Assembly: GCF_035594765.1 (NCBI RefSeq)
Contig: NC_085842.1
Span: 263,113,749 to 263,177,748 of the forward strand
Source: Anolis carolinensis
Lineage: Eukaryota
DNA length: 64,000 nt
Direction of reading: 5' to 3'
In this document: positions 1-48,364 of the stretch, in pieces
Numbering within the stretch: the stretch's first letter is position 1
Layout of the letters: each line of letters starts with the position of its first letter
Position numbers and translations under genes: made by a program
Notes under the pieces: generated by a model
What the model saw: only the letters and a program-made list of their open reading frames with translations
What the model was told of the DNA's origin: nothing
The model's database searches: none

Positions 1-1810
1 CAAAACGCTCAAAGAATAAAGCCCAGCGCTGTTGCCTCTGATTTAACTTGCGGGCAGTTCTTAGATGTTCTAGATTCCGATGATCAGTATGGATCTCAAT
101 GGGAAATTTGGCCCCTTCTAACCAATGTCTCCAAGTTTCGAAGGCTGCCTTTATGGCCAAAAGTTCTTTTTCCCAAATAGTGTAATTTCTCTCTGGGGCT
201 GTTAGTTGACGGGAGTAAAAGGCACAAGGGTGAAGATGATCTCCCACTGGTTGCAAGAGTACAGCCCCAATTGCCACATCGGAGGCGTCAGCCTGCACAA
301 CAAAAGGGATTTTAGGATCTGGGTGCTGAAGGATTGGCTGGGACGTGAATAATTTCTTTAGTTGCTGGAACCCTTTCTTTGCTTGCTCCGTCCAGCGAAA
401 AGGCTGTTTCCCACGGATGCAGCTGGTGATTGGATCAGACCAGCGGGCAAAGTCTGGAATGAACTTGCGGTAATAGTTCGCGAACCCCAAGAAACGTTGC
501 ACCTCTTTCTTGTTGGTTGGCGCCCGCCATTCCAATACTGCTGAAACCTTTGCCGGGTCCATGGAGAGCCCTAGTGGTGAGACACGGTATCCCAGAAAAT
601 CTACCTCTTGTAGATCAAAAGCGCATTTTTCCAACTTGGCATAAAGTCCATGATCCCGCAATCGTTGTAACACCATTCTGACATGGTTCTCATGTTCTGA
701 TTGTGATCTAGAAAACACCAAAAAATCGTCCAGGTAGATGATCAAGAACCGATCTAGATAGTCCTGAAAGATATCATTGACAAAATGCTGGAAGGTTGCG
801 GGAGCTCCACATAAACCATAATTCATGACCAGGGACTCGAATAATCCGAATTTAGTCTGGAAGGCGGTTTTCCACTCGTCCCCCTCCCTGATGCGAACTA
901 GATTATAAGACCCCCGAAGATCCAGCTTGGTGTAAACCTTGGCCCCTCGTAGCCGATCTAATAGGTCCGAGATCAAAGGCAGGGGATAGCGGTTCCGCTT
1001 AGTGATATTGTTCAATGCTCTATAGTCCACCACCAAGCGTAGGTCCCCTGACTTCTTTTTCACAAACATCACTGGGGAAGCGGCTGGGGATTGAGAGGGT
1101 CTGATGAACCCCTTGCGGAGGTTTGACTCTATGAACTCCCTGAGAGCTTCTTGCTCTGGTTCAGTCAAGGAGTAGAGGTGTCCTCGCGGGATCGGGGCCC
1201 CCTCCACCAAGTCAATGGCACAGTCATAAGGCCTATGCGGGGGTAGTCTCTCGGCTTCCTTTTCATTGAAAACATCCCAAAAGTCTGAGTATTTCTTGGG
1301 CAAGGTGATGATGGATTCAGCGTCTGTGGCGTGACAGACCTTGGCTACAAGACAATGATTTTGGCAATATTTAGAAGCAAACTGCAGTTCTCTGTTGGTC
1401 CAAGAGATGCTAGGGTCGTGGAGTGTCAGCCATGGGATTCCCAAAATCACAGGGAAGTGGGGAACCTCGGTAACAAAGAAGGAGATCTCTTCCATGTGTT
1501 CCCTTATCCACATTCTGGTGGGCTCAGACCATTGGCTTACTGGACCTGTCTTTAGGGGGCGGCCATCTATGGCTTGCACCACCCGGGCGTTCTTGAAATC
1601 GTGATATTGTAATCCCAGAGAGTCGGCATACTCTCTATCAATGAAATTGTTTGTCGCTCCTGAGTCTATCATGGCATGGATCATGACGGGTCCTTTTTTC
1701 GCTGACCACAAGGTGACCACTAGGAGAAATAGGACCCCGGTTGGCGGCTCTTGAGTGGGGTTTTTGACCGGGTTGGCGAGCCTCTCTACGCCCGGTCGGT
1801 GGCTTCCCCC
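1..1810 (-). CDS. pol: Gypsy Pol (protease-RT-RNase H, partial), -1 frame relative to gag
   Basis: Manual translation: AMIDSGATNNF (PR), LPPHRPYDCAIDL, VDYRALN, IYLDDFL (~740-725), VQADASDVAIGAVL and TDHRNL (RNase H). No stop seen; frame runs off the window. Confidence 0.95.
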
Positions 1811-2772
1811 GCCGGCTTTGCGCCAGCTGCCTCGGACGCCTTCGTCTCCACGGAGGACGCCGCCGCCAGACGAGCGGCGGGCTTCCCTTTGGCTGGACAC
1901 TCTCTGGCAAAGTGGCCCCCGTTTCCGCAGTACCAACAGAGGTTTAAACGTTGGCGGCGGGCCTTTTCGGCAAGATCTAGTCTGGGACGCACATTGCCCA
2001 ACTGCATCAGCACCTCCTCGCTTCCTCTGGGGTATGGGGCTGGTGGCGGGGGTCTCCACACTGGACGTGGCTGGATGCCGGGCGGAGCGGGAGGTTTTGC
2101 TCCAGCTCTTCCACTCTGGCCTCGGATCCACTGTTTTCTGTTGGCAAGCATGACTTCAGCTCGTAAACATTGATCAATGAGTCTTTCAAGAGAGTTTGGA
2201 GGGTCCACTTTGGAGATTTCCTCCAACATCTCGATGTTAAGACCCTCCCGAAACTGTCCTCTGAGGGCTATGTCATTCCAGCCGGTGTTTTGGGCCAGCA
2301 CTCGGAACTCGGCTATGTACTGGGACAAGGGCCTGTCCCCTTGGGAAAGGCGCCGGAGTTTGTGGCCGGCCGCCTCTAAATTGTCCTCGATCCCCCAAGT
2401 CGCTTTAAGGTGATCCAAGAAGTTTAGCGCGGAACTTAGATGCGGGGAGGCTTGATCGAACAGTGCCGTCGCCCAATTGGCCGCTGGCCCGTCTAGGAGA
2501 CTATAAATCCATGCCACCTTGATGTCTTCTTGGGGAAACTCGGCATTTCGGGCCTCTAGGTATGCCTGGCATTGGCGACGGAAAACATGAACCTTGGAAG
2601 CCTCTCCAGAAAACTTGGTGGGCAACGCCAGGGCAGGGAGACGGGCTCCACGTTCCTTCAAGCCCCGTATTTCTCCCTCCTGCGCATGGAACATATCACA
2701 GATCCTGTCCACTTCATCCTTGGCGATGGTGTAGCTGAGTGGTTGGTCACCCGGTCTGGCTCCGGTAGACAT
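1786..2772 (-). CDS. gag: Gypsy Gag (328 aa), sushi/PEG10-like
   Basis: LPTKFSG...FRRQC capsid region; QGDRPLSQYIAEFR MHR-like motif; CWYCGNGGHFAREC zinc knuckle. Confidence 0.96.
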   Translation of the reverse strand: MSTGARPGDQPLSYTIAKDEVDRICDMFHAQEGEIRGLKERGARLPALALPTKFSGEASKVHVFRRQCQAYLEARNAEFPQEDIKVAWIYSLLDGPAANWATALFDQASPHLSSALNFLDHLKATWGIEDNLEAAGHKLRRLSQGDRPLSQYIAEFRVLAQNTGWNDIALRGQFREGLNIEMLEEISKVDPPNSLERLIDQCLRAEVMLANRKQWIRGQSGRAGAKPPAPPGIQPRPVWRPPPPAPYPRGSEEVLMQLGNVRPRLDLAEKARRQRLNLCWYCGNGGHFARECPAKGKPAARLAAASSVETKASEAAGAKPAGEATDRA

Positions 2773-2802
2773 TCTGGCCTAGGTTAAATGGTGCTTAGGG
2801 TG

Positions 2803-2812
2803 GCGGAGTCAA
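2803..2812 (-). promoter_or_regulatory. Self-priming primer-binding site TTGACTCCGC
   Basis: Lies 2 nt after the LTR end; exact complement of GCGGAGTCAA at 3309-3300 in the LTR; lacks the TGG of a tRNA-type PBS. Confidence 0.85.
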
Positions 2813-2814
2813 AC

Positions 2815-3726
2815 TGTCACGACCCAGGCTGCAGAGCACCAATAACCATACACAGAGGCCAGAATCTATCTAATATCTTTATTAAGGAAATATGTAAAGT
2901 CAACAAAAATAAGTGTAGAATATAGTTCAGAAGAAGACCTTTCAGGAAAGGTCAATTATAGTCCAGGAAAACAATGTCCAATATAAAATATTAAGGTCCA
3001 AAGTTGTAATCCAGTAACCGAAACACTCACTTTGCCAAGCAAAGTGAGGGGAAATGACAAGGTCCTTTAGTCCATGAAACTTAAGCAAGGCTAGGAAGTA
3101 AACTTGATTCTTGGAACACAAGGCTTGATTCAAGGCAACAAGAAACGAGGAGCAAAAACAAGATCCGTGGTGAATTCGTGGCGAGATCCAGGGAGCAAAA
3201 CAAGGTCCTGGAAAGCAAAAGCAAGGCTGGAAACGGGAACAAGAACTTGAACGCGGGAGCAGCGTAGTCCACACACAACCTACTCCCGGAGCTGACGAAT
3301 TGACTCCGCAAGATTCCTTCGTGGGCAAAACACCTAAGTAGGGTCTCGTTTTCCCGCCAAAGAGCAGTTCTCTGGAGAACCAGAAACGAAAGCTATTCTC
3401 TGAGTCCAGATGCATGACTCCTTAAAGTTTCCCATGGGAAGCAGGCTTAATCAGCTGAATGCTTTGCAGCGATCCTAGCGCTCCTGCGAGACGCCTCCTG
3501 AGCGCCCCTCTGTTGTTTACAATAATCATGGCGAGAAAATGGGGGAGATTTCGGCTCAGGGCTTGTTTGACAAACTTCTGGAAGACAAATCTCCTGCAGG
3601 TGCAAGGGCTCCATTTCTGGCTGAGAAAGCTCCAATTCTGGCTGAAACGGTGGGAAACCTAAGTTTTCCTCTTCATCTGTCACAACAGCGCTAGGAACGG
3701 GACTACATGGCCCATGAGTCATCACA
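2815..3726 (-). repeat. 5' LTR (~912 bp)
   Basis: TG...CA termini (TGTGATGAC...GTCGTGACA); AATAAA at 2883-2878; TATA-like TACTTAGG near 3340; directly precedes PBS and gag. Confidence 0.9.
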
Positions 3727-3749
3727 GGGCCTTAGTTTGGGGACCCCTG
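3727..3749. mobile_element. Terminal remnant of hAT MITE disrupted by the Gypsy insertion
   Basis: GGGCCTTAGTTTGGGGACCCCTG is identical to the end of the hAT element at 31782-31804. Confidence 0.75.
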
Positions 3750-3769
3750 GTTTAGAGGGTATGTTTATC

Positions 3770-3962
3770 ATGTTAGCAGATGACACCAAATTAGGAGGGC
3801 TAGCTAATACTTCAGAAGACAGGATCAGGATTCAAAATGACCTTAACAGATTAAAGAGTTGGGCCAAAACTAGGAAAATGAATTTTAACAAGGAGAAATG
3901 TAAGATACTGCATTCAGGCAGAAAAAAGGAAATACAAAGATACAGGATGAGTGACACCTGGC
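3770..3962 (+). mobile_element. CR1 LINE RT fragment
   Basis: ADDTKLGG...RIQNDLNRLKSWA...MNFNKEKCKILH. Confidence 0.9.
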
Positions 3963-23032: not shown

Positions 23033-26000
23033 TCCCCCTCGATGGATTGTCACCTTGCCGTGGTGAGGGGGCTTGCGTGTTCCGATGAACCTGTGGGCAC
23101 AACCACTGGAGTGATGCACTCCCAGGAGTAGCCGCAGGGGAGGTTCCAGACCAAGCACAATCCGAAGACCCAAAGACCTCAACGGCGGAGCAGGCGGAGG
23201 ATAACATGGTACATGTTACAACGGCTGTGAAGGCGGAAGAAGGCTGCAACAGACTGAGAAGCCACTCTCGTTGTGTTAACCACACCACTGCTGGAACCTC
23301 ACTCTGTGAAGACTGTGTGTTGACCGGCCATGCACCGACCTCCACACATTAAAAAAAATCACGCACAGGCGTCTTCCAACAAAAATAAAAACAAACCTAC
23401 AAAAGTCCCATGGTGATCAGCGAGTGGCGACGGGGGCAGGACTGTGAAATCTGGAAGCCCCTAGTCACAGGCTGGCACATGGGCGGTGGATATGGACTCA
23501 GTCGTTCTACCTCAAGGACCGAGGCAGTTGAGTAGTCCGGCAGCTGTATCCATGACTGAGCAGCCCTTTTTAGGATCCGCTCTGCTCACCCCACACGGGG
23601 AAGGGGCTAGAAAAGGTGCCCTAAACATAGTCTGCCTCTCCTACCCTGACTGGACTGCCGCGTCCAGAGGGGTCACCACTCTGCGGCCAAAAAAGAAAAA
23701 TGAACTTTGGAACATGGAACATACGGACATTGTTAGATAACACTGACAGCGAACGCCCCGAACGCAGGACTGCTCTCATTGCAAGGGAGCTGGGACGCTT
23801 TAAGATCGACATAGCAGCCCTTCAGGAGACCCGGAGAGCAGGAGAGGGACAGAGGAAGGAAAAAAAGGGAGGCTACACCTTCTTCTGGAAGGGACTGCCT
23901 GAAGAAGAGCGAAGAATACACGGAGTTGGCTTTGCGATCAGAAACGACCTGGTGAAGCACCTGACTGAAGCACCCACTGGCATCAACGAACGACTTTCAA
24001 CCCTCCGAATTAACCTTGCCAAAAACCAACAGGCAACCATCATATGCGCCTATGCACCAACTCTAGATGCTGACGAAGACATCAAGGAAAATTTTTACTG
24101 TCAGCTGGATACCATCCTATCGGAGATACCTAAGGAGGACAAAATCATCCTCCTGGGGGACTTTAATGCAAGAGTCGGAAGGGACTCTGACCTGTGGCCA
24201 GGGATCATAGGAAAAGACGAGGTCGGAAACAGCAACTCGAATGGCATCTTGCTTCTCACCAAATGCGGAGAGCACAACCTTGTCATCACCAATACGCTCT
24301 TCCGCCAGAAAAACAAGCTCAAGACATCATGGAAGCACCCTCGGTCAAAGCATTGGCACCTCCTGGACTATGTTATCACACGTGCCAGAGACCGCCGCGA
24401 TGTGCTTCTCACAAGAGCCATGACAGGTACTGATGACTGCTGGACAGACCACAGGCTAATCCGATCCACGATGGCTATCAAGATCGTCCCCAAACGCAGA
24501 CTCCAAGGAAGAAAAACAAGGTGCAAAATGAACACCCAAGCCCTTCAGGAGCCCTCCAAATGAGCCCTTCTCCAAACAACACTCAAAGATCATCTACCCA
24601 CAGAACACCCCGAAAATGTTGAGGAACATTGGAACAAACTGAAGACCTCCATCATCACAGCCTGCGAAGAAAGCATTGGATACCTAACTAAGAAACATCA
24701 AGACTGGTTTGATGATAACGACAAAGAGATCCAACAGCTGATTGATAACAAAAGGAAAGCCTTCCAAACATGGCAGAGAGACACCAACTGTGCTGCCAAG
24801 AAAAAGATCTATGCCAGTGCAAAAGCTGAGGTCCAAAGAAGGACCAGAGAACTCAAGAACATCTGGTGGACAAAGAAGGCTGAAGAAATCCAACACCTTG
24901 CAGATACCCATGACGCTCAGGGATTTTTCAAAGCCACAAAGATCATTTACGGACCAAGAAACCATGGCATACAGCCCCTATGCTCATCAGATGGAACCAA
25001 AATTCTGAAGGACAAAACATCAATTGCACTACGTTGGAAAGAGCACTACCAGAACCTGCTGAATCGCAGCTCCAGTGTGGCCGAAGAGACCCTCTCACAA
25101 ATCCAGCAACAACAAACCAGGGATGAGCTTGCAGCACTGCCTAGTTTGGAAGAAGTCAGCAATGCCATCAGCCAACAAAAAAACAACAAAGCCAGCGGAC
25201 CTGATGGGATTCCTGCTGAAATCTTCAAAGAGGGTGGACCTGAGCTGATACAACAACTCCACCAGCTCATTAAAAAGGTGTGGATGACCGAGAAAATCCC
25301 AGCTGACTTCAAGGATGCCACCATCATCACCCTTTTCAAGAAAGGGGACAGAACAGACTGCGGGAACTATCGTGGTATCTCCCTTCTAACCTCGGCCGGG
25401 AAAATCCTTGCAAGAATCCTTGCAAACCGCCTTCTCCCTGTCTCAGAAGACACCCTCCCAGAATCCCAGAATGGCTTCCGTCCCTCCAGAGGAACAGTGG
25501 ACATGATCTTCACTGCTCGACAGCTCCAAGAAAAATGCAGGGAACAAAACCAACCTTTCATTGACCTTGCAAAGGCATTCGACACAGTGAATCACAGCGC
25601 TCTCTGGACCATCCTCCAAAAAATCGGGTGCCCTGACAAATTTGTGAATATCCTGCGGCTCCTCCATGATGACATGATGGCAACAGTCTTGGACAGCAAC
25701 GGCTCCCAAAGTGACCCATTTAAGGCGGAATCAGGTGTCAAGCAGGGATGTGTTATTGCCCCCACCTTATTTTCCATCTTCATCGCTATGATACTTCACC
25801 TTGTTGATGGGAAGCTTCCCACCGGAGTGGAAATCATCTATCGGACAGATGGCAAGCTATTTAACCTCAACAGACTGAGAGCCAAAACCAAGGTCACCAC
25901 AAAATCTGTTATAGAACTCCAATATGCTGATGACAACGTAGTCTGTGTGCATTCAGAAGAAGACCTACAACCACTCTAAACACCTTCGCAGAAGCATACG

Positions 26001-26935
26001 AGAAGCTCGGCCTCTCACTGAACATCGAGAAAACCAAAGTGCTCTTCCAACAGGCACCAGCTAATCCCTCTGCAAAGCCAGGAATACAGCTTAACGGTGT
26101 AACATTAGAAAATGTTGACCATTTCCGCTACCTTGGTAGCCACCTCTCCACAAAAGTCAACATCGACACTGAAATACAACACTGCCTGAGCTCTGCGAGT
26201 GCAGCATTTTTCCGTATGAAGCAGAGAGTGTCTGATGACCGGGACATCCGTAGAGAGACCAAGGTGCTTGTTTATAAAGCCATTGTCCTCCCAACCCTGC
26301 TCTACGCCTGCGAAACGTGGATTGTGTACAGACGTCACACCAAACTCCTGGAGCGTTTCCATCAGCGTTGCCTCAGGAAAATCCTGCAAATCTCTTGGGA
26401 AGACAGGCGGACAAATGTCAGCGTCCTTGAGGAAGCAAAGACCACCAGCATTGAAGCGATGCTCTTACGCCATCAACTCCGCTGGACTGGCTACGTTGTC
26501 CGAATGCCCGATCACCGTCTCCCAAAGCAGCTCCCCTACTCCGAACTCAAGAATGGGAAACGGAATGTTGGTGGGCAGGAAAAGAGATTTAAAGATGGGC
26601 TCAAAGCCAACCTTAAAAACTGTGGCATAGACACTGAGAACTGGGAAGCCCTGGCCCTTGAGCGCTCTAATTGGAGGTCAGCTGTGACCAGCAGTGCTGC
26701 GGAGTTCGAAGAGGCACGAACGGAGGGCTTAAGGGAGAAACGTGCTAAGAGGAAGGAGCGTCAAGCTAACCCCGACCGGGACCGCCTTCCACCTGGAAAC
26801 CGATGTCCTCACTGCAGGAGAATATGCGGGTCAAGAATCGGTCTCTTCAGTCACCTAAGAACACACACCCAAGATACCAAGGTTGGAAGACTATCGTCCT
26901 CGAACGACGAGGGATCGCCTAAGTAAGTAAAGTAA
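23033..26935 (+). mobile_element. Full-length RTE-clade LINE, inactivated
   Basis: TSD GGATCGTAATTT at 23021-23032 and 26936-26947; ~670-nt 5' UTR; single APE-RT-C2H2 ORF; (TAAG)n tail. Confidence 0.97.
23700..26926 (+). pseudogene. RTE ORF (APE endonuclease, RT, C-terminal CCHH finger), disrupted
   Basis: GTWNIRTL, LQET, GDFNA, TDHR; FIDLAKAFD, YADD; CPHCRRICGSRIGLFSHLRTH. TGA at 24561-24563, short in-frame deletion before FIDL, frameshift near 25970. Confidence 0.95.
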
Positions 26936-33109: not shown

Positions 33110-35107
33110 TAGGCTTGTCCGATCGATGGAAAAAATGTTTCAATTCTTGTTTCTAAAGTAGGGGGTGCCGGCGCTTCGATATAGAAATTATTTCCGAATT
33201 TTTCACCCAAAAATTTCGGATATTTCCAAAAATTCATAATGATTCTTAATGTTTGTAAAAGGCGGACGCGCATGCGCAATCGCCAAAAAAAAAGGAAACC
33301 GGGGGGGACTTTTACAGGGCTCTCCCACCCTCATTTCTTGAGCTATCCTCATCAAATTTGGTACAGTGGGAGATCACATTCAACACTCTTTGCTCAACAA
33401 ATTGCAGAAAGTTTCCTGTCTCCTATGAATTTTGGCGAATTTTCATAACTTTTTATAATACACTATTTTTCAATATTTGAAGAAACCTGTTCCTGGTTTG
33501 AAAGTCTTATTTCCTGTTCAATTGGGTTCTTATCACTGTAAAAGTCCCTCTTCTACTTGTGTAGACTTTGGATTAGAAACGCAGCACATGCCAAGCAATG
33601 CCTTGGCAGGAGTGCCACTGTCCTTTGGAAACTGGCCTTTGAACCTTTTGATCAATGGTGCCACTGACTGACCTTGTGATTGCAAAAATGAAACTCTGGC
33701 TGAGGACTTTGGATTAGAAATGCAGCACACGCCAAGCAATGCCTTGACAGGATTGGCAATGTCCTTTGGAAACTATAAATTGCTGTGGACCCTCTATTGA
33801 ATCAAATCAATGTCTGACTTTGTGATTGCAGAAATAAAACTCAGCCCAAGGCTTGGGAATAGAAATGGAGCGCAAGGGAAGCAATGCCTTGGCAGGAGTG
33901 CCCACGTCCTTTGGAAACTATAAATTGCTGTGGACCCTCTATTGAATCAAATCAATGTCTGACTTTGTGATTGCAGAAATAAAACTCAGCCCAAGGCTTG
34001 GGAATAGAAATGGAGCGTGAGGGAAGCAATGCCTTGGCGGGTGCCCCACGTCCTTTGGAAACTATTTCTTCCAATGTACCCTTTTAGGTTTGAAAACAAT
34101 GTGTGTCTTTGTGATTGCTGCAATAACACTCAGCCCGGGGGTTTGGGATTACAAACGGAGCGGGAGGGAAGCAACGCACTTGCAGGAACGCAGACATCCT
34201 TTAGAAACTATAACTTCCAATGTCCCCCCCCCCCTTTCAGGATTGCTATGAAGGGCTGATCTAGAGGTTGCAAAAATCAAATAAAAGGCAGAGGGTCTCT
34301 GGAGTAGAAAAGGAGAGGACCCCAAGCACTGCACTTGCAGGAACGCAGACGTCCTTTGGAAACTATAACTTTCAATGTCCCCCCCCTTTCAGGATTGCAA
34401 AGAAGGGCTGATCTAGTGATTGCTAAATTCCAAAAAAAAAAAGGCAGAGGTTTAGAAATGGAGCATCAGGAAAGCAATGCCTTGGTGCCCATGTCCTTTT
34501 AAAAATAAAAATTGCCTAAAGCCACAGCAAGGACTCTGCCACATCCCACAAGCCCCAAGCCAATTTCTCAAAAAAACAAAAAAAAAACAAAAAACACAAT
34601 ATCGAACCAGCAACAACAGATACTCCACCCTCTATAGCCAGAACACTTAGCCCTCTCTCCCCAAGCAGCTTGATTCCCAGCGCGGCGCGATCCACCCTCT
34701 CTGCTCGGTATCCTAGCCCAGAATGGCTTGCCTGGGTTGGGGAGGGGTTTTTTATAGAGATCTTACCCGTGGACGCGGAGGACGCTAGCCCCCACCTTTT
34801 CCAGCCATCGTGGAAGTCTCTGATTGGCCAGGGAGCGGCATCCATTTTAGGCTGCGCTAGGCTCCCATTCAAGTTAGGTTGCAGAAACAAATTTTTTTTT
34901 AATTTTTTTTTTAAAAAAAATTAAAAAAAATTGGGGAGGAAAAAATTTAACAAAACATTAAGAAACAATTAGAGAATGGGCCAACGATGGTTCAAATTAC
35001 GTTGCCAGTTGCGCCCAGGGACAACGTTTCAATACTCGGTTCAAAAAGCAAGAACAATCCGAAATAATTCCAAAATAAGAATCATAACGAAATTTTGGAC
35101 AACCTTA
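33110..35107. mobile_element. 2-kb non-autonomous hAT-like element with internal ~145-bp tandem array
   Basis: 8-bp TSD GTGATTAG at 33102-33109 and 35108-35115; ends TAGGCTTGTCC/GGACAACCTTA; CpG-rich subtermini. Confidence 0.88.
33585..34500. repeat. Tandem repeat, about 7 diverged units of ~140-160 bp
   Basis: gcaatgccttgg...gtcctttggaaact recurs near 33595, 33736, 33881, 34026, 34171, 34330, 34474. Confidence 0.85.
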
Positions 35108-42101: not shown

Positions 42102-44503
42102 TCATTTTCCTTTCATTTCTTCTTGTAGGTAAATTTCCAATTCAGACCAGTCCGTTTGTTTCATTGGTTTCCCTGTGCTTCTTCTTGTCAGATAGGTTAA
42201 TTTATCCATATTTTTGATGTCTAGTAATTTTTCCAACCACATTGTTACCGTGGGGCTCTCTGGGTTCTTCCAGTTTTTTGCTACTACCATTCTTGCGGTA
42301 GTTACTGCATATGTAAAGATTTTTATCTTATTTTCTTTTTCTTTTAAGGAGTCTAATGGATCCTGCTCTTGCATTTCAAGTAACCCTAATAAAAAATATT
42401 CAGGTTTACATTCTAAATTAATTTTTAGCATTTTTTTTACATTCTAAGTGGATTGATTTCCAATAATTTTTAATATTTTTACAATTCCACCATATGTGGA
42501 AATATGACCCAATTTGTTCTTTACACCTCCAACATCTTTTGTCTCTGTTTCGATACATTAATCCCAGTTTTTTGGGGGTTAGATACCATCTATGGATAGT
42601 TTTTAGCCAATTTTCTTTCAAGTCAATTGAATAGCAATATTTTATTTTTTTATTCCAAATATTTTCCCATTCATCCATTGTGATGGGTCTGCCTATATTC
42701 CTAGACCATTTTAACATTGATTCCTTGACTATTACGGATTCTGTATTCCATTCTATTAATTTGTTATATAGAATCGTTACCAATTTCTTGTTTTTCTGAA
42801 GTATATTGTCCCAAAAATTGTTATCCAAATTGAAACCCGTTTCTTTATCTCTGTTATAACTTTCCTTTATTTGGTGGTATTGGAACCAGGATATATTCTT
42901 GTATTTTTTTTGAACTTCCTCTATTTCTTTGATACCTACTATTCCAGATATTAAATTTGATTTTTTAAAGATTTCTTTATATGTTGGCCAATTGTTCCAA
43001 CCCAATAATCTACGTTGGTTAGCCTCTAAAGAGGAAAGCCACAGTGGGGTTTTCTCATATAAATATCTTCTATATTTTACCCATATTTTAATCAAGGATG
43101 ACCTCACAAAATGGTTTCCAAAATTTTTATCAATTTTCATTTTATCGTAGCATAGGTAACCATGCCAACCCCATCGCAGATTGAATCCTTCAATTGTCAG
43201 TAATTTTTTATTTTCCAATTTAACCCAGTCGATTACCCATTCCAGAGCACACGCCTCATGGTAGAGTTGTAAATCAGGCAGTCCGAAACCTCCTCTCCTT
43301 TGAGGGGTGATCATCGTGCTAAATTTTATTCGGGGCTTTTTATTTTTCCAAATAAATTTTGACAGTTCTTTGTTCCAGTCTTTGAATACCTTAGCCCCTC
43401 TAATAATTGGGATGTTCCTGAACAGATATAACAATTTAGGCAAGACATTCATTTTAATAACCGCAATTCTCCCCATAAGTGAAATATTTAGATTTGCCCA
43501 ATTTCCTAAATCTTTTTTTATTTCCTTCCATTGTGCCCCGTAATTCAGATCTAATAGTTGGTTGTTTTTACTAGCTATCCAGATCCCTAAATATTTCATT
43601 TTTTTTACTATTTCCAAGCCCGATTTCTCCTTTAATTCCCTCTGGCTTCTCATAGACATATTTTTAGTAAGGGTTACTGTTTTCTTTTTGTTTAATTTGA
43701 AACCTGCCAGATATCCAAAATCCTCTATTTTTTTAACCAATCTTTTATCGTTTCTTTTGGGTTTTCAATTACACAAATTACATCATCAGCAAATGCTCTA
43801 ATCTTTATTTCTTGTTTGTCCAATTTAATCCCCTTTAAATTTTCATCTTTTTGAATTGAGTTTAACATGATCTCCAATGTAAAGATAAAAATTAGCGGAG
43901 ACAGGGGACAGCCTTGTCTCGTTCCTTTAGTTATTTCAAATTCTTTAGTTAATTGATTGTTTACTCTAATTCTAGCGCTTTGCTGATGATATATTGCGTT
44001 GATTCCATTTTGAAATTGATTTCCTATGTCTATTTCCTTTAATAGTAGTTTTAAAAAGTTCCAATTGACGTTATCAAAGGCTTTTTCAGCATCTACTGCT
44101 AAAAAGCCCACCTCCTTTTGATGATTTACATCGAAATATTCTATCGAATCTATTATTAATCTGACGTTGTTCTTTTACTGTGATTGGGAAGGAATCCAGT
44201 TTGGTCATCTGAAATCCATTCTTTTAGAAATTCGGTAAATCTGTTAGCCAGCACTTTTGTGAAAATTTTATAATCGGTATTAAGTAATGAGATGGGGCGG
44301 TAATTTGATACCTTATTTGGATCTGATCCTTCTTTATGTATTAAAATAATTTCCGCTTTTTTCCACGTCTCTGGAATGATTTTTTTTGTTAGGGCTTCAT
44401 TCATTACCTTTTTCAAATGTTGAATTATTTCATCTAATTGTAATTTATAGAAGCCCGCCGTGAATCCATCAGGACCTGGGGATTTATTGGCGTCTAAATT
44501 TTT
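42102..44503 (-). pseudogene. L1 ORF2 RT and C-terminal part
   Basis: KSPGPDG, NYRPISLLN, DAEKAFD, GTRQGCPLSP, FADD, KYLG, CWRC...HIWWNC; frameshifts near 44170, 43735 and 42430. Confidence 0.95.
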
Positions 44504-45631
44504 CCGGTGAGCGTTCATGGCGACGGACATGCTTCCCCAGGGCTCTGGGAGAAGCGCCCGAGGTTGCACCCAGAGCGAGCCTTAGGCTGCCCCTCGCCTC
44601 GCGGATCGAAGCGGGCGAGGTTGCCAAGTCAGTTAGCGTCCCGACGACCCCAAAAATCATCCGTCCCTCAAGGGCGGATGATCGAGAGGGTCCGGGAGTC
44701 TGACGAAGCAGGGAGCAACCCATGAAGCAGAAGAGGGCTTCTGCACAAGCCGGGCGCCACGCTCATCTCAATGAAGAGCAAAAGTAAGTGAGAGAAAAAA
44801 AGAGACTCCGGGGAACGGGGGGCTCCGGATACAGGAACTTAAGTTCCCAAATGAGAGAATTGGATCTTCTTCTTCTAACAATGGGCAAAGGGAAGAAAGA
44901 ATTATAAAGGGGGATCGCGTAACCCTCACAGAGCCAGATCGTTATACGTTAGAAAACAGAAGAGATAATAAGAGTTAAGAGTATAATAGAGCAATCTAAG
45001 AAACCACTTGTGGTGGGCGAAAGCTTATTTAACGAGCAACAAAGAAAGAGAAATAGAAAAGAAAGGGATTACTTTGCATATCTTTAAAAACAAAGGGGGA
45101 AGGGAAACAGCACTTTTGGTACAGCCTTCTTGATAGGAAACTGGCAAAAAGAGTCAGAGAGCACTGGGGAGTGTTGTAATTTAAACAAGGCTCTTAAATT
45201 CGATACTGCAGAATATAACCACGGGAGGATTATACTAACGGAAGAAGGCCCCCTCAGAGGAGTTGGCGACCGAAAAGACGCCCGCCATATCAGAAGCCAG
45301 CAAGACCTAACTGACCTTGAGAAGGAGTTTGTTGTGTCTATGTAAGTCCCTGCCCCAGCCGAGCGAAGTTTGGGGAGGAGTCCGCAACCGGAGCTGGCTA
45401 GGAGGTGAGACGCGCTTCTGGTGGAACAGGAAGCCGAAGGGACTAATTTCAAGAGACACAAACCATAGAGTTCTGGCAGAAGGCGGAAGGAGGGGCATTA
45501 AGAAAGAGACACCAGGATCTAATCCTCCCATTACCTATATTAAGATAGAAGGCAAATAAGGAACCCAGAGACAAAAAGGCCATTGCAACCCAAAAGAACA
45601 ACTTGTTTAAGTAAATCTTTACTAAGGAAAA

Positions 45632-46708
45632 ATGGACTTCAAAACAACGACCCTTAGGGGGAAAACAGAAAAGGATGTTAGAGACCCTAAGACGCTACAA
45701 AGACGAAACTCAATCCCTGAAGATACCGGGTTCTGTGAATTATTAAAAGAGATGCAGAAAATCTCAGATAAGCAAGACTTGCTTCAAAAAGAGATTCACG
45801 GGATCGCAGTAAAACAGGACTTGCAACAAAAAATATTGCAAGAAGAAATGACTATATTAAAGAAAGAAATAAAAGAGGAAATTTGCACCATTAAACTGGA
45901 AGTGGCAAAAAACGTACAAGAAATTCAAGAAATTAAAACAGACAACATAAGAATAGAGAGGACACAGTTAAAATTACAACAAAAAGTGGAAACCATGGAA
46001 TTCAAGAACACCAAACTGGAAAAAATGCAAGAAAAAATTGAACAAAATGAAGCAGAATACCAACTAAGATTTCGAAATATAGAAGAAGACCCTAAGGAAA
46101 ATATTAAACAAATTATAACCAAGATAACTGCTGAAGTCATACAATGCAGTGAGAGAGAGGCAGCTGAACAAATCGATAGCGTCTACAGACTACATACAAA
46201 TTATGCAAAAAAATATAAAGTGGCCAGAGACGTCATCGCACATTTTGTAAAGAAAAGTTTTAGAAACGAAATATTATACAATTCCAGAACAAAATCAATT
46301 ACCTACAACACAAAAAGAATTATGATCCTCAAAGAATTCCCACCATCCACTATCAATAAACGGAAAAAGTACTTTTTCTTAACGGATGAATTGAAGCGCC
46401 TCCAAATCAGGTTCCGCTGGGAGAAACAAGAAGGTCTCATGTTAACTTATAAAGGGGAAAAAATTTGGATTAAAACAGAAGAAAAAGCAGACCAATTTTA
46501 TAGGAAGCTAAAAAAAGACTTAGCACAAAGACTATCACCACAATCATCGAGTGAAGAGAAAAACCCCAAAAAGGCAAAGAAAAGAAGACAAGAGTCGCCA
46601 AAGGAAGTTGTGGAAGAACAACTCATATCAATTTTAGGCGAAGATCAAGAAGCTCTTTCAGAGGAGGAAGAGGAAGGAGAGAAAATGGAAGATGCCCTTA
46701 ATGAATAG
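45632..46708 (+). CDS. L1 ORF1p (358 aa; coiled coil, RRM, CTD), uninterrupted
   Basis: Long heptad region, then LRFRNIEE, IDSVYRL, ARDVIAHF, ILKEFP, IRFRW; precedes ORF2. Confidence 0.92.
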   Translation: MDFKTTTLRGKTEKDVRDPKTLQRRNSIPEDTGFCELLKEMQKISDKQDLLQKEIHGIAVKQDLQQKILQEEMTILKKEIKEEICTIKLEVAKNVQEIQEIKTDNIRIERTQLKLQQKVETMEFKNTKLEKMQEKIEQNEAEYQLRFRNIEEDPKENIKQIITKITAEVIQCSEREAAEQIDSVYRLHTNYAKKYKVARDVIAHFVKKSFRNEILYNSRTKSITYNTKRIMILKEFPPSTINKRKKYFFLTDELKRLQIRFRWEKQEGLMLTYKGEKIWIKTEEKADQFYRKLKKDLAQRLSPQSSSEEKNPKKAKKRRQESPKEVVEEQLISILGEDQEALSEEEEEGEKMEDALNE

Positions 46709-48078
46709 TTTTACCCAATCAATAAAGATATTTTCGAACAACATTAACGGTTTGAACTCGCCCATTAAGAGACAGAGAACCTACAACTACTTAGGTAAGA
46801 AAAATTATAATATTATTGCTCTCCAAGAAGTCCATATCGCCCAGAAACATTCAAAATATTTAATACATACTAAATTGGGAAAATTATATTACGCTCTGGA
46901 CACAAAGAAAAAACGGGGGGTGGCCTTATATATAGATGAAAAATTTAAATCTGAAGAAATATTTAAGGATCAGGAAGGAAGGATAATAGCAGTAAAAATT
47001 GACCTAGGCATTGAAAAACTATTAATCTGTAACATTTACGTTCCAAATGGCCCCAAAAGAAAATTTGTTAATGCACTAAGAACCAAAATTGGGAAGACAG
47101 ATTTTGACCACATTGTAATTATGGGAGACTTCAACGGAATATTAGATAATAATTTGGATAAATCGGTAAAGAAAAAGAAAAATAATAATAACTCTCTTCC
47201 AATAAATTTTTCACAATTAAAAGATGAATACGATCTAGAGGACATTTGGAGAATACGTAATCCTACACAAAGAGATTATACATTCTACTCCAATCGCCAT
47301 AATTCATGGTCCAGAATCGATATGATCTGGACATCTAAAAGTTTAGAACCTAAAGTAGATGAGATAAAAATCTTAACACGAGATCTTTCAGATCACTGCC
47401 CATTGATTATGAATATAAATTATAAAAAGAAACCGGTAAGTTGGAGATTGGATAATAATTTAATTAAACAGGAAACTGACATTAAAAAAATTAAAAGGAT
47501 GACTATGGAATACTTTCAATTTAATGATAACCAAGAGACAAGTCCACAAACAACCTGGGATGCCTATAAAGCAGTAGCTAGGGGCCATTTCATTCAGCAG
47601 AAAGCACGAAAAAATAGAATTAAATATCAAAAACTACAAGACATACAAAAAGAAATGGAAGCAGAGGAATTACAATTAAAAAAAAAACCCAAGTGATGGA
47701 AAGATTATGAAAAAATTAAAAATATTACACAAACAGAAAAGCAACTTAGAATTGGAGCACTTAGCTAACCAACTGAAATGGACAAAACAGAACGCATTTG
47801 AGAACGCAAATAAACCAGGGAGATGGTTGGCCAGAATGATAAGAAAAAAGAAAAATAAACAACAAATCACAAAAATAGAATCACAAGGGAAATTGATATA
47901 CATAGATGATAAGATAAGAGACATCTTTGAAAGTTTTTATAGCAATCTATATAAAAAAGATAATATAGATTTAGATTTAATTGGCGAATATTTAAGTAAG
48001 CTAAAATTGCAAAAAATTACAGAAGAACAAAGATTAATTTTAAATAAAGAAATTACAGAAAACGAAATAAAAATGGCT
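46692..48078 (+). pseudogene. L1 ORF2 N-terminal part (APE endonuclease and linker)
   Basis: NINGLN, LQE, NIYVPN, GDFN, SRID, SDH; frameshift in the A-run near 47680. Confidence 0.93.
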
Positions 48079-48364
48079 ACCTGGATCTGTTTCTTGTCCC
48101 AGCTTTCAGTGGTGGGCCTCAATCCATTTTTACGGAGCCTCCTGAAATTGGGAGAGCAAATATTTGTTTTTGCTTTTTACTGCTGAAATATAAATTTTCT
48201 TCCATCTATTAATGGGGAGGCTTCCCACCCAGACTCCCCTTCCCGGTGAATGCTTTAAGGAGGCTTTTTATTGGGGTTTGCCTTACCTTCATCTGGGGAG
48301 TTGAAGGGCTCCTTGGCTGGGGATGAAGACCCATCACATTTGCCGGTGAACTTGCTCCGTAACC

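What the first reader, a model, noticed from the sequence alone, without database searches (positions are those of the whole stretch)
3447..3726. U3 of the Gypsy LTR is an open frame ending in an HMGN-like RRSARIAA motif: possible LTR-encoded chromatin-binding tail of integrase
Seen: a 92-codon frame is open from base 2 of the LTR. It is acidic and Pro-rich first, then basic (...QEASRRSARIAAKHSAD*). Known: RRSARLSA is the HMGN core that binds the nucleosome H2A/H2B acidic patch, and pol frames of some Gypsy elements run through the PPT into the 3' LTR. Inference: in the 3' LTR (outside this window) Pol may read into U3, giving integrase an arginine-anchor nucleosome-targeting tail encoded by the LTR.
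Basis: partly seen in the sequence, partly recalled or inferred. Interest (0 to 1): 0.75.

Follow-up and report, generated by a model that had tools for sequence, protein, structure and literature searches.

The report
LTR-encoded nucleosome anchor on lizard integrase
In a family of lizard jumping genes the integrase protein reads on into the element's terminal repeat and ends in a conserved RRSARIAA motif, nearly identical to proven nucleosome-gripping motifs, which likely tethers the insertion machinery to chromatin (binding untested).

Summary
The stretch is U3 of the 5' LTR (3726-2815, minus strand) of a Tf1/sushi-type chromovirus of Anolis carolinensis. In annotated copies of this family, Pol runs through the chromodomain and the PPT into this 92-residue frame. 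Of 52 junction-bearing proteins seen, 47 reach the motif. The frame is under protein-level selection: 10 of 14 listed variable sites are synonymous, and no net frameshift is listed. RRS[A/L]RIAA is the least-changing window of the tail. A Podarcis family with only 56% Pol identity has an otherwise unalignable acidic tail ending PRRSARLK. Yeast Dot5 RRSARIAT, 7 of 8 residues identical, is a proven acidic-patch binder (PMC13347269). Best reading: chromodomain, a disordered spacer of about 70 residues, then an HMGN-like arginine anchor. Binding is untested, and AlphaFold draws the motif as a helix. An LTR-encoded integrase targeting domain is known from plant CRM elements, and acidic-patch tethers from retroviral Gag. 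My searches found no retrotransposon integrase with an HMGN-like motif. New variant of a known kind; interest 0.66.

The parts
2815..3726 (-). 5' LTR, 912 bp, TG...CA, of a Tf1/sushi-type chromovirus
   Evidence: loose ends of contigs pile at 3726
3447..3725 (-). U3 frame, 92 codons plus stop; in the 3' LTR of family copies it is the C-terminal tail of Pol/integrase
3543..3698 (-). acidic, Pro-rich spacer (tail residues 10-61), predicted disordered, length-variable in frame
3465..3488 (-). RRSARIAA motif (tail residues 80-87), HMGN/Dot5-like
3300..3309 (-). 10-nt complement of the PBS; inferred RNA start (U3/R border) used for self-priming
   Evidence: PMC6317226 passages
2878..2883 (-). only sense AATAAA in the LTR, likely poly(A) signal, downstream of the tail's stop
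2803..2812 (-). primer binding site, self-priming type (inferred)
1786..2772 (-). gag (Retrotrans_gag, zf-CCHC), 328 aa
2..1786 (-). pol, -1 frame relative to gag: protease, RT, RNase H; runs off the window before integrase

Best explanation
Pol of this lizard chromovirus family reads through the polypurine tract into U3 of the 3' LTR, so integrase ends in a chromodomain, a predicted disordered acidic spacer and a conserved RRS[A/L]RIAA motif that likely grips the H2A-H2B acidic patch with an arginine anchor, as HMGN, Dsup and Dot5 do. SHOWN: the fusion in sister copies, selection on the frame, and conservation of the motif in Anolis and Podarcis. INFERRED: the genomic RNA carries the 3' U3 upstream of the poly(A) signal, so the tail is translated only from the 3' LTR; the identical 5' copy seen here lies upstream of the RNA start. 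Also inferred: the tail stays on integrase after protease processing. The motif's arginines would take the type-1 and anchor positions, and with the chromodomain (probable methyl-lysine reader) they would hold the pre-integration complex on nucleosomes, raising capture efficiency or steering site choice or mitotic retention.
For: (1) Six of 7 hits among 48 candidates are Anolis SH3/chromodomain proteins ending in the tail, five of them with the integrase core. Of 52 junction-bearing family proteins, 47 reach the motif; 5 more also do. (2) DNA variation among copies in four runs: 14 of the 40 listed sites fall in the frame; 11 are at third positions (p about 7e-4) and 10 are synonymous (p 1e-4 to 1.4e-3; crude pN/pS 0.11-0.17). 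The only listed indels in the frame are a +1/-1 pair of equal depth, while 10 lie in the non-coding LTR, 9 of them not a multiple of 3. Two synonymous sites fall inside the motif, so the constraint is on the protein. (3) Tail lengths are mostly 85, 87, 92 or 97 residues and end in the same motif. (4) In 45 proteins the motif is the lowest-change 8-residue window of 76 (1.1 changes per column against 2.5-3.3 in the flanks). The anchor R, I and last A are 45/45, and no lysine appears at the three motif arginines although neighbouring basic sites swap R and K. (5) Podarcis family, Pol 55.7% identical: 5 of 5 complete tails carry PRRSARLK near their end, and the rest of the tail does not align (shuffle p 0.35; only the motif pairs). 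Such a motif arises in 4e-4 of composition shuffles. The squamate elements form a clade, 99/98. One of 124 non-squamate chromodomain proteins has even RxSxR[LIV] there. (6) Dot5 RRSARIAT binds nucleosomes through the acidic patch and needs R6, R7 and R10 (PMC13347269 passages). The HMGN2 density is RRSAR with R23 and R26 as contacts (PMC12487698).
Against: No binding or localisation experiment exists for this peptide. AlphaFold2 draws the last 27 residues, motif included, as one helix (pLDDT about 64-74), whereas the solved HMGN and Dsup segments are short pieces straddling H2A; the conserved I-A-A could be a helix face for another partner. The fourth motif position is Leu in 16 of 45. The 'any window' test for conservation gives only p = 0.08 (0.002 for the window named beforehand). 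The phase contrast against the non-coding LTR is not significant (10 of 21 sites there share the phase; Fisher p 0.09). Only 40 of 169 sites and 12 of 15 indels were shown, chosen by support. Two Rhineura proteins of the same clade lack the motif (one has the acidic tail), and the single Salvator protein has only a variant, RQSSRL, at the tail's start. The proteins are gene predictions, biased to open frames, and only 59 of 430 cluster members were listed. The shuffle figure ignores local clustering of basic residues. LTR borders outside Anolis are inferred from the protein junction; no DNA was seen.
Confidence: 0.62

Rival explanations
1. The tail is translated and selected, but its last 27 residues form a helix that binds something else (a host targeting factor, integrase itself, or Gag/capsid). 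The likeness to HMGN is incidental.
For: AlphaFold helix 289-315 in P0009; invariant small hydrophobics I, A, A; the wheat CR domain is also a helix with a basic motif, modelled on CENH3 (PMC11302176 passages).
Against: In Podarcis a proline directly precedes the motif, as in Dsup PPRRSSRL, and only RRSAR[I/L] is shared between the two lizards. Dot5 has the same I-A and binds the patch.
Confidence: 0.17
2. The basic end is a nuclear localisation signal or a non-specific DNA/RNA-binding patch, like the C-terminal NLS of Ty1 integrase.
For: Last 32 residues are net basic (7-9 K/R against 2-4 D/E). Frog chromoviruses have basic LTR-read tails without the motif. Ty1 NLS papers appear as titles in the reference list of PMC3605345.
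Against: No lysine at the three motif arginines in 45 proteins, and the uncharged S, I and A are conserved. The motif does not fit a classical lysine-rich NLS (recalled).
Confidence: 0.12
3. The tail is cut off by the element's protease and acts as a separate small chromatin tether, like MLV p12, rather than as part of integrase.
For: A long exposed disordered spacer (pLDDT under 50, residues 216-288). p12 is a cleavage product that probably targets the acidic patch (PMC9040877 passages).
Against: p12 has a second, capsid-binding domain. No second conserved block of that kind is evident beyond the LTR-end codons and short DEEEN and LHLQ islands. This rival shares the acidic-patch mechanism.
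Confidence: 0.06
4. Only the open frame matters (for example to shorten the 3' UTR and avoid RNA decay), or the conservation is DNA-level (promoter elements), and the peptide is neutral.
For: Read-through into the LTR with unrelated tails is common in frog and fish relatives. The tail as a whole evolves about four times faster than the chromodomain (2.6 against 0.6 changes per column).
Against: Synonymous excess, including two synonymous sites inside the motif; the same motif in Podarcis in an unalignable tail.
Confidence: 0.03

Closest known systems
Plant CRM group A chromoviruses, CR motif / putative targeting domain (Neumann 2011, PMC3059260; Weber 2013, PMC3605345; wheat RLG_Cereba, PMC11302176; passages read)
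   Same: [quoted passage not shown]
   Different: The CR motif stands in place of the chromodomain and is tied to centromeres; its partner is unproven (CENH3 modelled). Here an intact chromodomain is kept upstream of the PPT, and the LTR adds an HMGN-like motif, in a vertebrate Tf1/sushi lineage.
HMGN core motif RRSARLSA, tardigrade Dsup RRSSRLTS, yeast Dot5 RRSARIAT (PMC12487698 parts 1-2 of 5; PMC13347269 passages)
   Same: RRSxR[L/I] inside a disordered protein; 7 of 8 residues identical to Dot5; the solved HMGN2 segment RRSAR is matched exactly by the commonest variant.
   Different: Those are host proteins with shown binding. Here the motif ends a retrotransposon Pol, no HMGN Pfam match is found, and binding is untested.
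Viral acidic-patch tethers: foamy virus Gag CBS, MLV p12, KSHV LANA, HCMV IE1 (PMC9040877 passages; PMC12125541 abstract)
   Same: An arginine anchor tethers a mobile genome or pre-integration complex to nucleosomes; in foamy virus it shapes integration sites.
   Different: Those tethers are on Gag products or herpesvirus proteins, not on integrase, and are not LTR-encoded. The passages I read do not describe them as HMGN-type motifs.
Vertebrate Tf1/sushi (V-clade) chromoviruses (PMC6317226 passages)
   Same: Gag, -1 pol, Tf2-type SH3, chromodomain, self-priming PBS. Frog and fish relatives also read into the LTR.
   Different: Their tails are shorter or lack the motif; the long acidic tail with RRSxR[I/L] was seen only in squamates.

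Membership tests
Tf1/sushi chromovirus (Ty3/Gypsy) | PR-RT-RH-IN order with C-terminal chromodomain | tested here: met
   Window Pol has PR, RT, RH; the 97%-identical P0057 adds Integrase_H2C2, rve, SH3_Tf2-1 and Chromo above cut-off.
Tf1/sushi chromovirus (Ty3/Gypsy) | PBS complementary to the element's own LTR (self-priming) | tested here: met
   Exact 10-nt match 2812-2803 to 3309-3300; comparison with tRNA 3' ends not run.
Group I (HP1-like) chromodomain | three aromatic cage residues | tested here: inconclusive
   Read by eye as F/W/F in Anolis and Y/W/Y in Podarcis against the YWY description in PMC3605345; no alignment to HP1, ligand unknown.
CRM group A (CR motif) | [quoted passage not shown] | tested here: met
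CRM group A (CR motif) | CR motif in place of a chromodomain; plant CRM clade | tested here: not met
   Chromodomain present upstream of the PPT; groups with vertebrate elements (no plant CRM was in the tree). Works like it, is not a member.
CRM group A (CR motif) | centromeric localisation | not testable with these tools
   No genome held.
HMGN-like motif proteins | RRSxR[L/I] with three conserved arginines | tested here: met
   R 44/45, R 44/45, S 44/45, R 45/45, I 45/45; Podarcis 5 of 5 complete tails.
HMGN-like motif proteins | motif sits in a disordered context | tested here: inconclusive
   Spacer pLDDT under 50, but the motif segment is drawn as a helix.
HMGN-like motif proteins | acidic-patch-dependent nucleosome binding | not testable with these tools
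   Needs a binding assay.
HMGN protein family | homology to HMGN proteins over their length | tested here: not met
   No Pfam family at E up to 1, no PDB match at E up to 10, no HMGN-named hit. Not a member; the resemblance is motif-level.

The most novel reading that the evidence does not exclude
Squamate chromoviruses evolved an HMGN-type acidic-patch anchor inside their LTR and have kept it while the spacer turned over beyond recognition. This makes integrase a two-point nucleosome reader (methyl-lysine plus acidic patch), the first retrotransposon case. Because the frame has its own ATG at LTR base 5, every solo or 5' LTR is also a ready-made exon for a 91-residue acidic-patch competitor. 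One Anolis gene model (XP_062826559.1) already ends in it. That extension is much less likely (about 0.1) than the integrase part.
Probability: 0.5. Interest if true: 0.8.

Novelty: new variant of a known kind. Interest (0 to 1): 0.66.

Why it matters
How vertebrate chromoviruses choose or hold chromatin is little studied, and proven HMGN-like motifs outside HMGN are few (Dsup, Dot5). This gives a short, directly testable peptide with natural variants and evolutionary support from two lizard families. If it binds, acidic-patch tethering (known for retroviral Gag) was reached independently by a retrotransposon integrase. It would also mean that an LTR-encoded targeting tail arose in vertebrates as in plant CRM elements, and that U3 does double duty as promoter and coding exon. 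It suggests looking for the same arginine-anchor logic in the unexplained CR motif and in other LTR-read tails.

Tried and rejected
No whole genome was held, so this copy's 3' end, TSD, age and genomic distribution were not obtained. No second LTR copy lies in the window.

Complex prediction of the last 32 residues with stand-in H2A/H2B from a metagenome contig (L043): 'no answer', score 0.02. It is not used either way; PMC12487698 reports that AlphaFold 3 also fails on HMGN2-nucleosome.

The ESM Atlas gave only generic chromodomain clusters or nothing. The PDB sequence search was empty. phmmer over 1.84 billion representatives gave 7 hits: 4 Anolis and 3 weak ones; of the weak ones, two were read and look unrelated, P0066 was not read. 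The tail has no detectable homologue outside Anolis.

Sequencing runs: no RNA holder listed; contigs say nothing on expression. The loose-end cells are not used as sequence evidence. ARAGORN found no tRNA in the window (uninformative).

Earlier scan findings: nothing by sequence, place or the HMGN words. The 8 shown of 24 concern other elements.

Literature searches without a matching paper, judged by listing: retrotransposon + integrase + acidic patch + arginine anchor, 0; chromovirus + chromodomain + Anolis + LTR, 5; integrase + acidic patch + retrotransposon + chromodomain, 3, all on retroviruses; gypsy + integrase + 'extends into the LTR' + polypurine tract, 0; 'HMGN-like motif' + transpos, 2 listed, on Dsup and Dot5.

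Rejected: chance ORF, annotation artefact alone, DNA-only constraint.

Full report
WHAT IS IN THE WINDOW. The minus strand holds the 5' part of a Ty3/Gypsy element: a 912-bp LTR (3726-2815, TG...CA), a PBS, gag (2772-1786; Retrotrans_gag, zinc knuckle) and pol in the -1 frame (protease, RT, RNase H), cut by the window edge before integrase. The PBS is the exact complement of LTR 3309-3300 (10 nt; about 0.004 expected), the self-priming arrangement that PMC6317226 (passages) gives for Tf1/sushi elements. This puts the RNA start near 3309 (inferred), so the frame lies wholly in U3 and its stop is upstream of the LTR's only sense AATAAA (2883-2878). Alone the frame is modest evidence: 2.9-4.7% of 2000 shuffles match it from the LTR start. 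No genome was held.

POL READS INTO THE LTR. A search for longer proteins gave 7 hits among 48 candidates. Six carry SH3 and chromodomain and end in this tail; five of them also hold the integrase core, and five are named Anolis carolinensis, the sixth unnamed with Anolis members in its cluster. The seventh is an Anolis gene model ending in the tail alone. Their clusters hold 430 members, of which 59 were listed. Among P0005-P0070, 52 have both chromodomain and PPT junction (51 by pattern plus P0057). Of these, 47 reach the motif and 5 end or diverge earlier. Five more complete tails carry it, one as RSSARIA; one further member is truncated mid-tail. The window's Pol is 97.1% identical to P0057 over 561 residues, and its tail 91%. 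The read-through is therefore shown for sister copies and inferred for this one. These are gene predictions and favour open frames.

THE FRAME IS SELECTED AS PROTEIN. Contigs of four public runs were laid on 2700-3760; 40 of 169 variable sites and 12 of 15 indels were shown, chosen by support. Fourteen sites fall in the frame: 11 at third positions (p about 7e-4) and 10 synonymous against 22-30% expected (p 1e-4 to 1.4e-3; crude pN/pS 0.11-0.17). Two synonymous sites are inside the motif. In the non-coding LTR 10 of 21 sites share that phase, so the direct contrast is only p = 0.09. The two indels in the frame are a +1/-1 pair of equal depth; ten lie outside, nine not a multiple of three (p about 0.04). 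Subfamily tails are 85, 87, 92 or 97 residues, with two singletons of 91 and 94.

THE MOTIF IS THE CONSERVED PART. On a tree of 45 proteins (P0063 and P0057 dropped because anchors were missed), parsimony changes per column are 0.6 in the chromodomain, 2.5-3.3 in the three spacer blocks and 1.1 in the motif. The motif is the lowest 8-residue window of 76, with the first nine codons excluded (p 0.002 for this pre-named window, 0.08 for any window). Counts: R 44, R 44, S 44, A 29 / L 16, R 45, I 45, A 43, A 45 of 45. No lysine occurs at the three arginines, while nearby basic sites swap R and K.

OUTSIDE ANOLIS. A chromodomain profile found 1739 proteins; the best 120 were listed. A Podarcis muralis family (Pol 55.7% identical over 578 residues) has the same layout: chromodomain, G-rich junction, a 117-residue acidic Pro-rich tail, and PRRSARLK near the end. 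Of its 15 members, 5 have complete tails and all 5 carry the motif, in two length types; 1 stops before the junction and 9 lack the region. A further Podarcis model diverges mid-tail. The Anolis and Podarcis tails do not align beyond the motif (shuffle p 0.35), and such a motif appears in 4e-4 of composition shuffles, an underestimate because basic residues cluster. Anolis, Podarcis and Rhineura elements form a clade (99/98; 31 rows, IN-chromodomain), so inheritance is more likely than convergence. Against: two Rhineura proteins lack the motif, one with the acidic tail. The one Salvator protein has RQSSRL at the start of its acidic tail. Frog and fish relatives also read into the LTR, with shorter or basic tails and no motif. 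One of 124 non-squamate chromodomain proteins had RxSxR[LIV] within 170 residues; many of those are chimeric models, so this control is lenient. LTR borders outside Anolis are inferred from protein only.

MECHANISM. AlphaFold2 on P0009 with 17 relatives folds SH3 and chromodomain, leaves residues 216-288 at pLDDT under 50 and draws 289-315 as a helix at about 64-74. Cryo-EM shows HMGN2 RRSAR and Dsup RRSSR on the H2A-H2B acidic patch, with the last arginine as anchor on H2A E61/D90/E92 (PMC12487698, parts 1-2 of 5 read). Yeast Dot5 carries RRSARIAT, 7 of 8 identical to the window's RRSARIAA; its nucleosome binding needs R6, R7 and R10 and is lost on acidic-patch mutants (PMC13347269, passages). 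I therefore put 0.62 on a tether: integrase - chromodomain - spacer of about 70 residues - arginine anchor, holding the pre-integration complex on nucleosomes. Fusion, selection and conservation are shown. Binding, retention on processed integrase, the chromodomain's mark and any effect on site choice are inferred. Rivals: a helix for another partner (0.17), NLS or nucleic-acid patch (0.12), cleaved p12-like tether (0.06), neutral tail (0.03).

COMPARISON AND NOVELTY. An integrase targeting domain encoded in the 3' LTR is known: plant CRM group A elements, whose CR motif replaces the chromodomain (PMC3059260, PMC3605345, PMC11302176; passages). Acidic-patch tethering of pre-integration complexes is known for foamy virus Gag and probably MLV p12 (PMC9040877 passages; PMC12125541 abstract). 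The element works like CRM in layout and like Dot5/HMGN in motif, but is neither a CRM element nor an HMGN protein. Five searches listed no paper on an HMGN-like motif in a retrotransposon integrase; the library is incomplete and no supplements were read.

Noticed in passing
P0004 (XP_062826559.1), P0065; window 3720-3722: An Anolis gene model ends in the tail (99% identical to the window's) with no integrase; its upstream 74 residues are not in the window. Another model fuses a LINE RT piece to the tail. The frame has an ATG at LTR bases 5-7, so solo LTRs could supply the peptide.
   Followed up: partly
P0124, P0280: Two Anolis models join this family's chromodomain, at the PPT position, to an HP1-type chromo shadow domain (Pfam): a gene-model chimera or a captured HP1 fragment that rebuilds an HP1-like protein.
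   Followed up: partly
P0078, P0079, P0083: Oryzias and two fish-like chromovirus Pol proteins also read past the G-rich junction and end in SPEF, SPTY or SPEY, perhaps a different conserved LTR-encoded end motif.
   Followed up: no
P0172 (Salvator merianae): A Dsup-like RQSSRL sits at the start, and RRQTRL near the end, of an acidic tail after the junction; single sequence.
   Followed up: partly
window 2803-2812 and 3300-3309: Exact 10-nt PBS/LTR complementarity (self-priming); contig depth peaks at 3276-3311.
   Followed up: yes
window 3727-3945: The element is inserted next to a LINE RT fragment open on the plus strand (DDTKLGG; CR1-type by recall).
   Followed up: no
window 23631-26926 (+) and 19448-20972 (-): A near-complete LINE (endonuclease-RT, broken by a stop and a frame change; RTE-like by recall) and an inverted older copy about 80% alike.
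   Followed up: no
window 42418-44581 (-) and 45626-48186 (+): Two L1-like fragments (by recall) in opposite orientation: RT part, and ORF1 plus endonuclease.
   Followed up: no
window 33562-34485: Tandem array of about seven 141-155-bp units.
   Followed up: no
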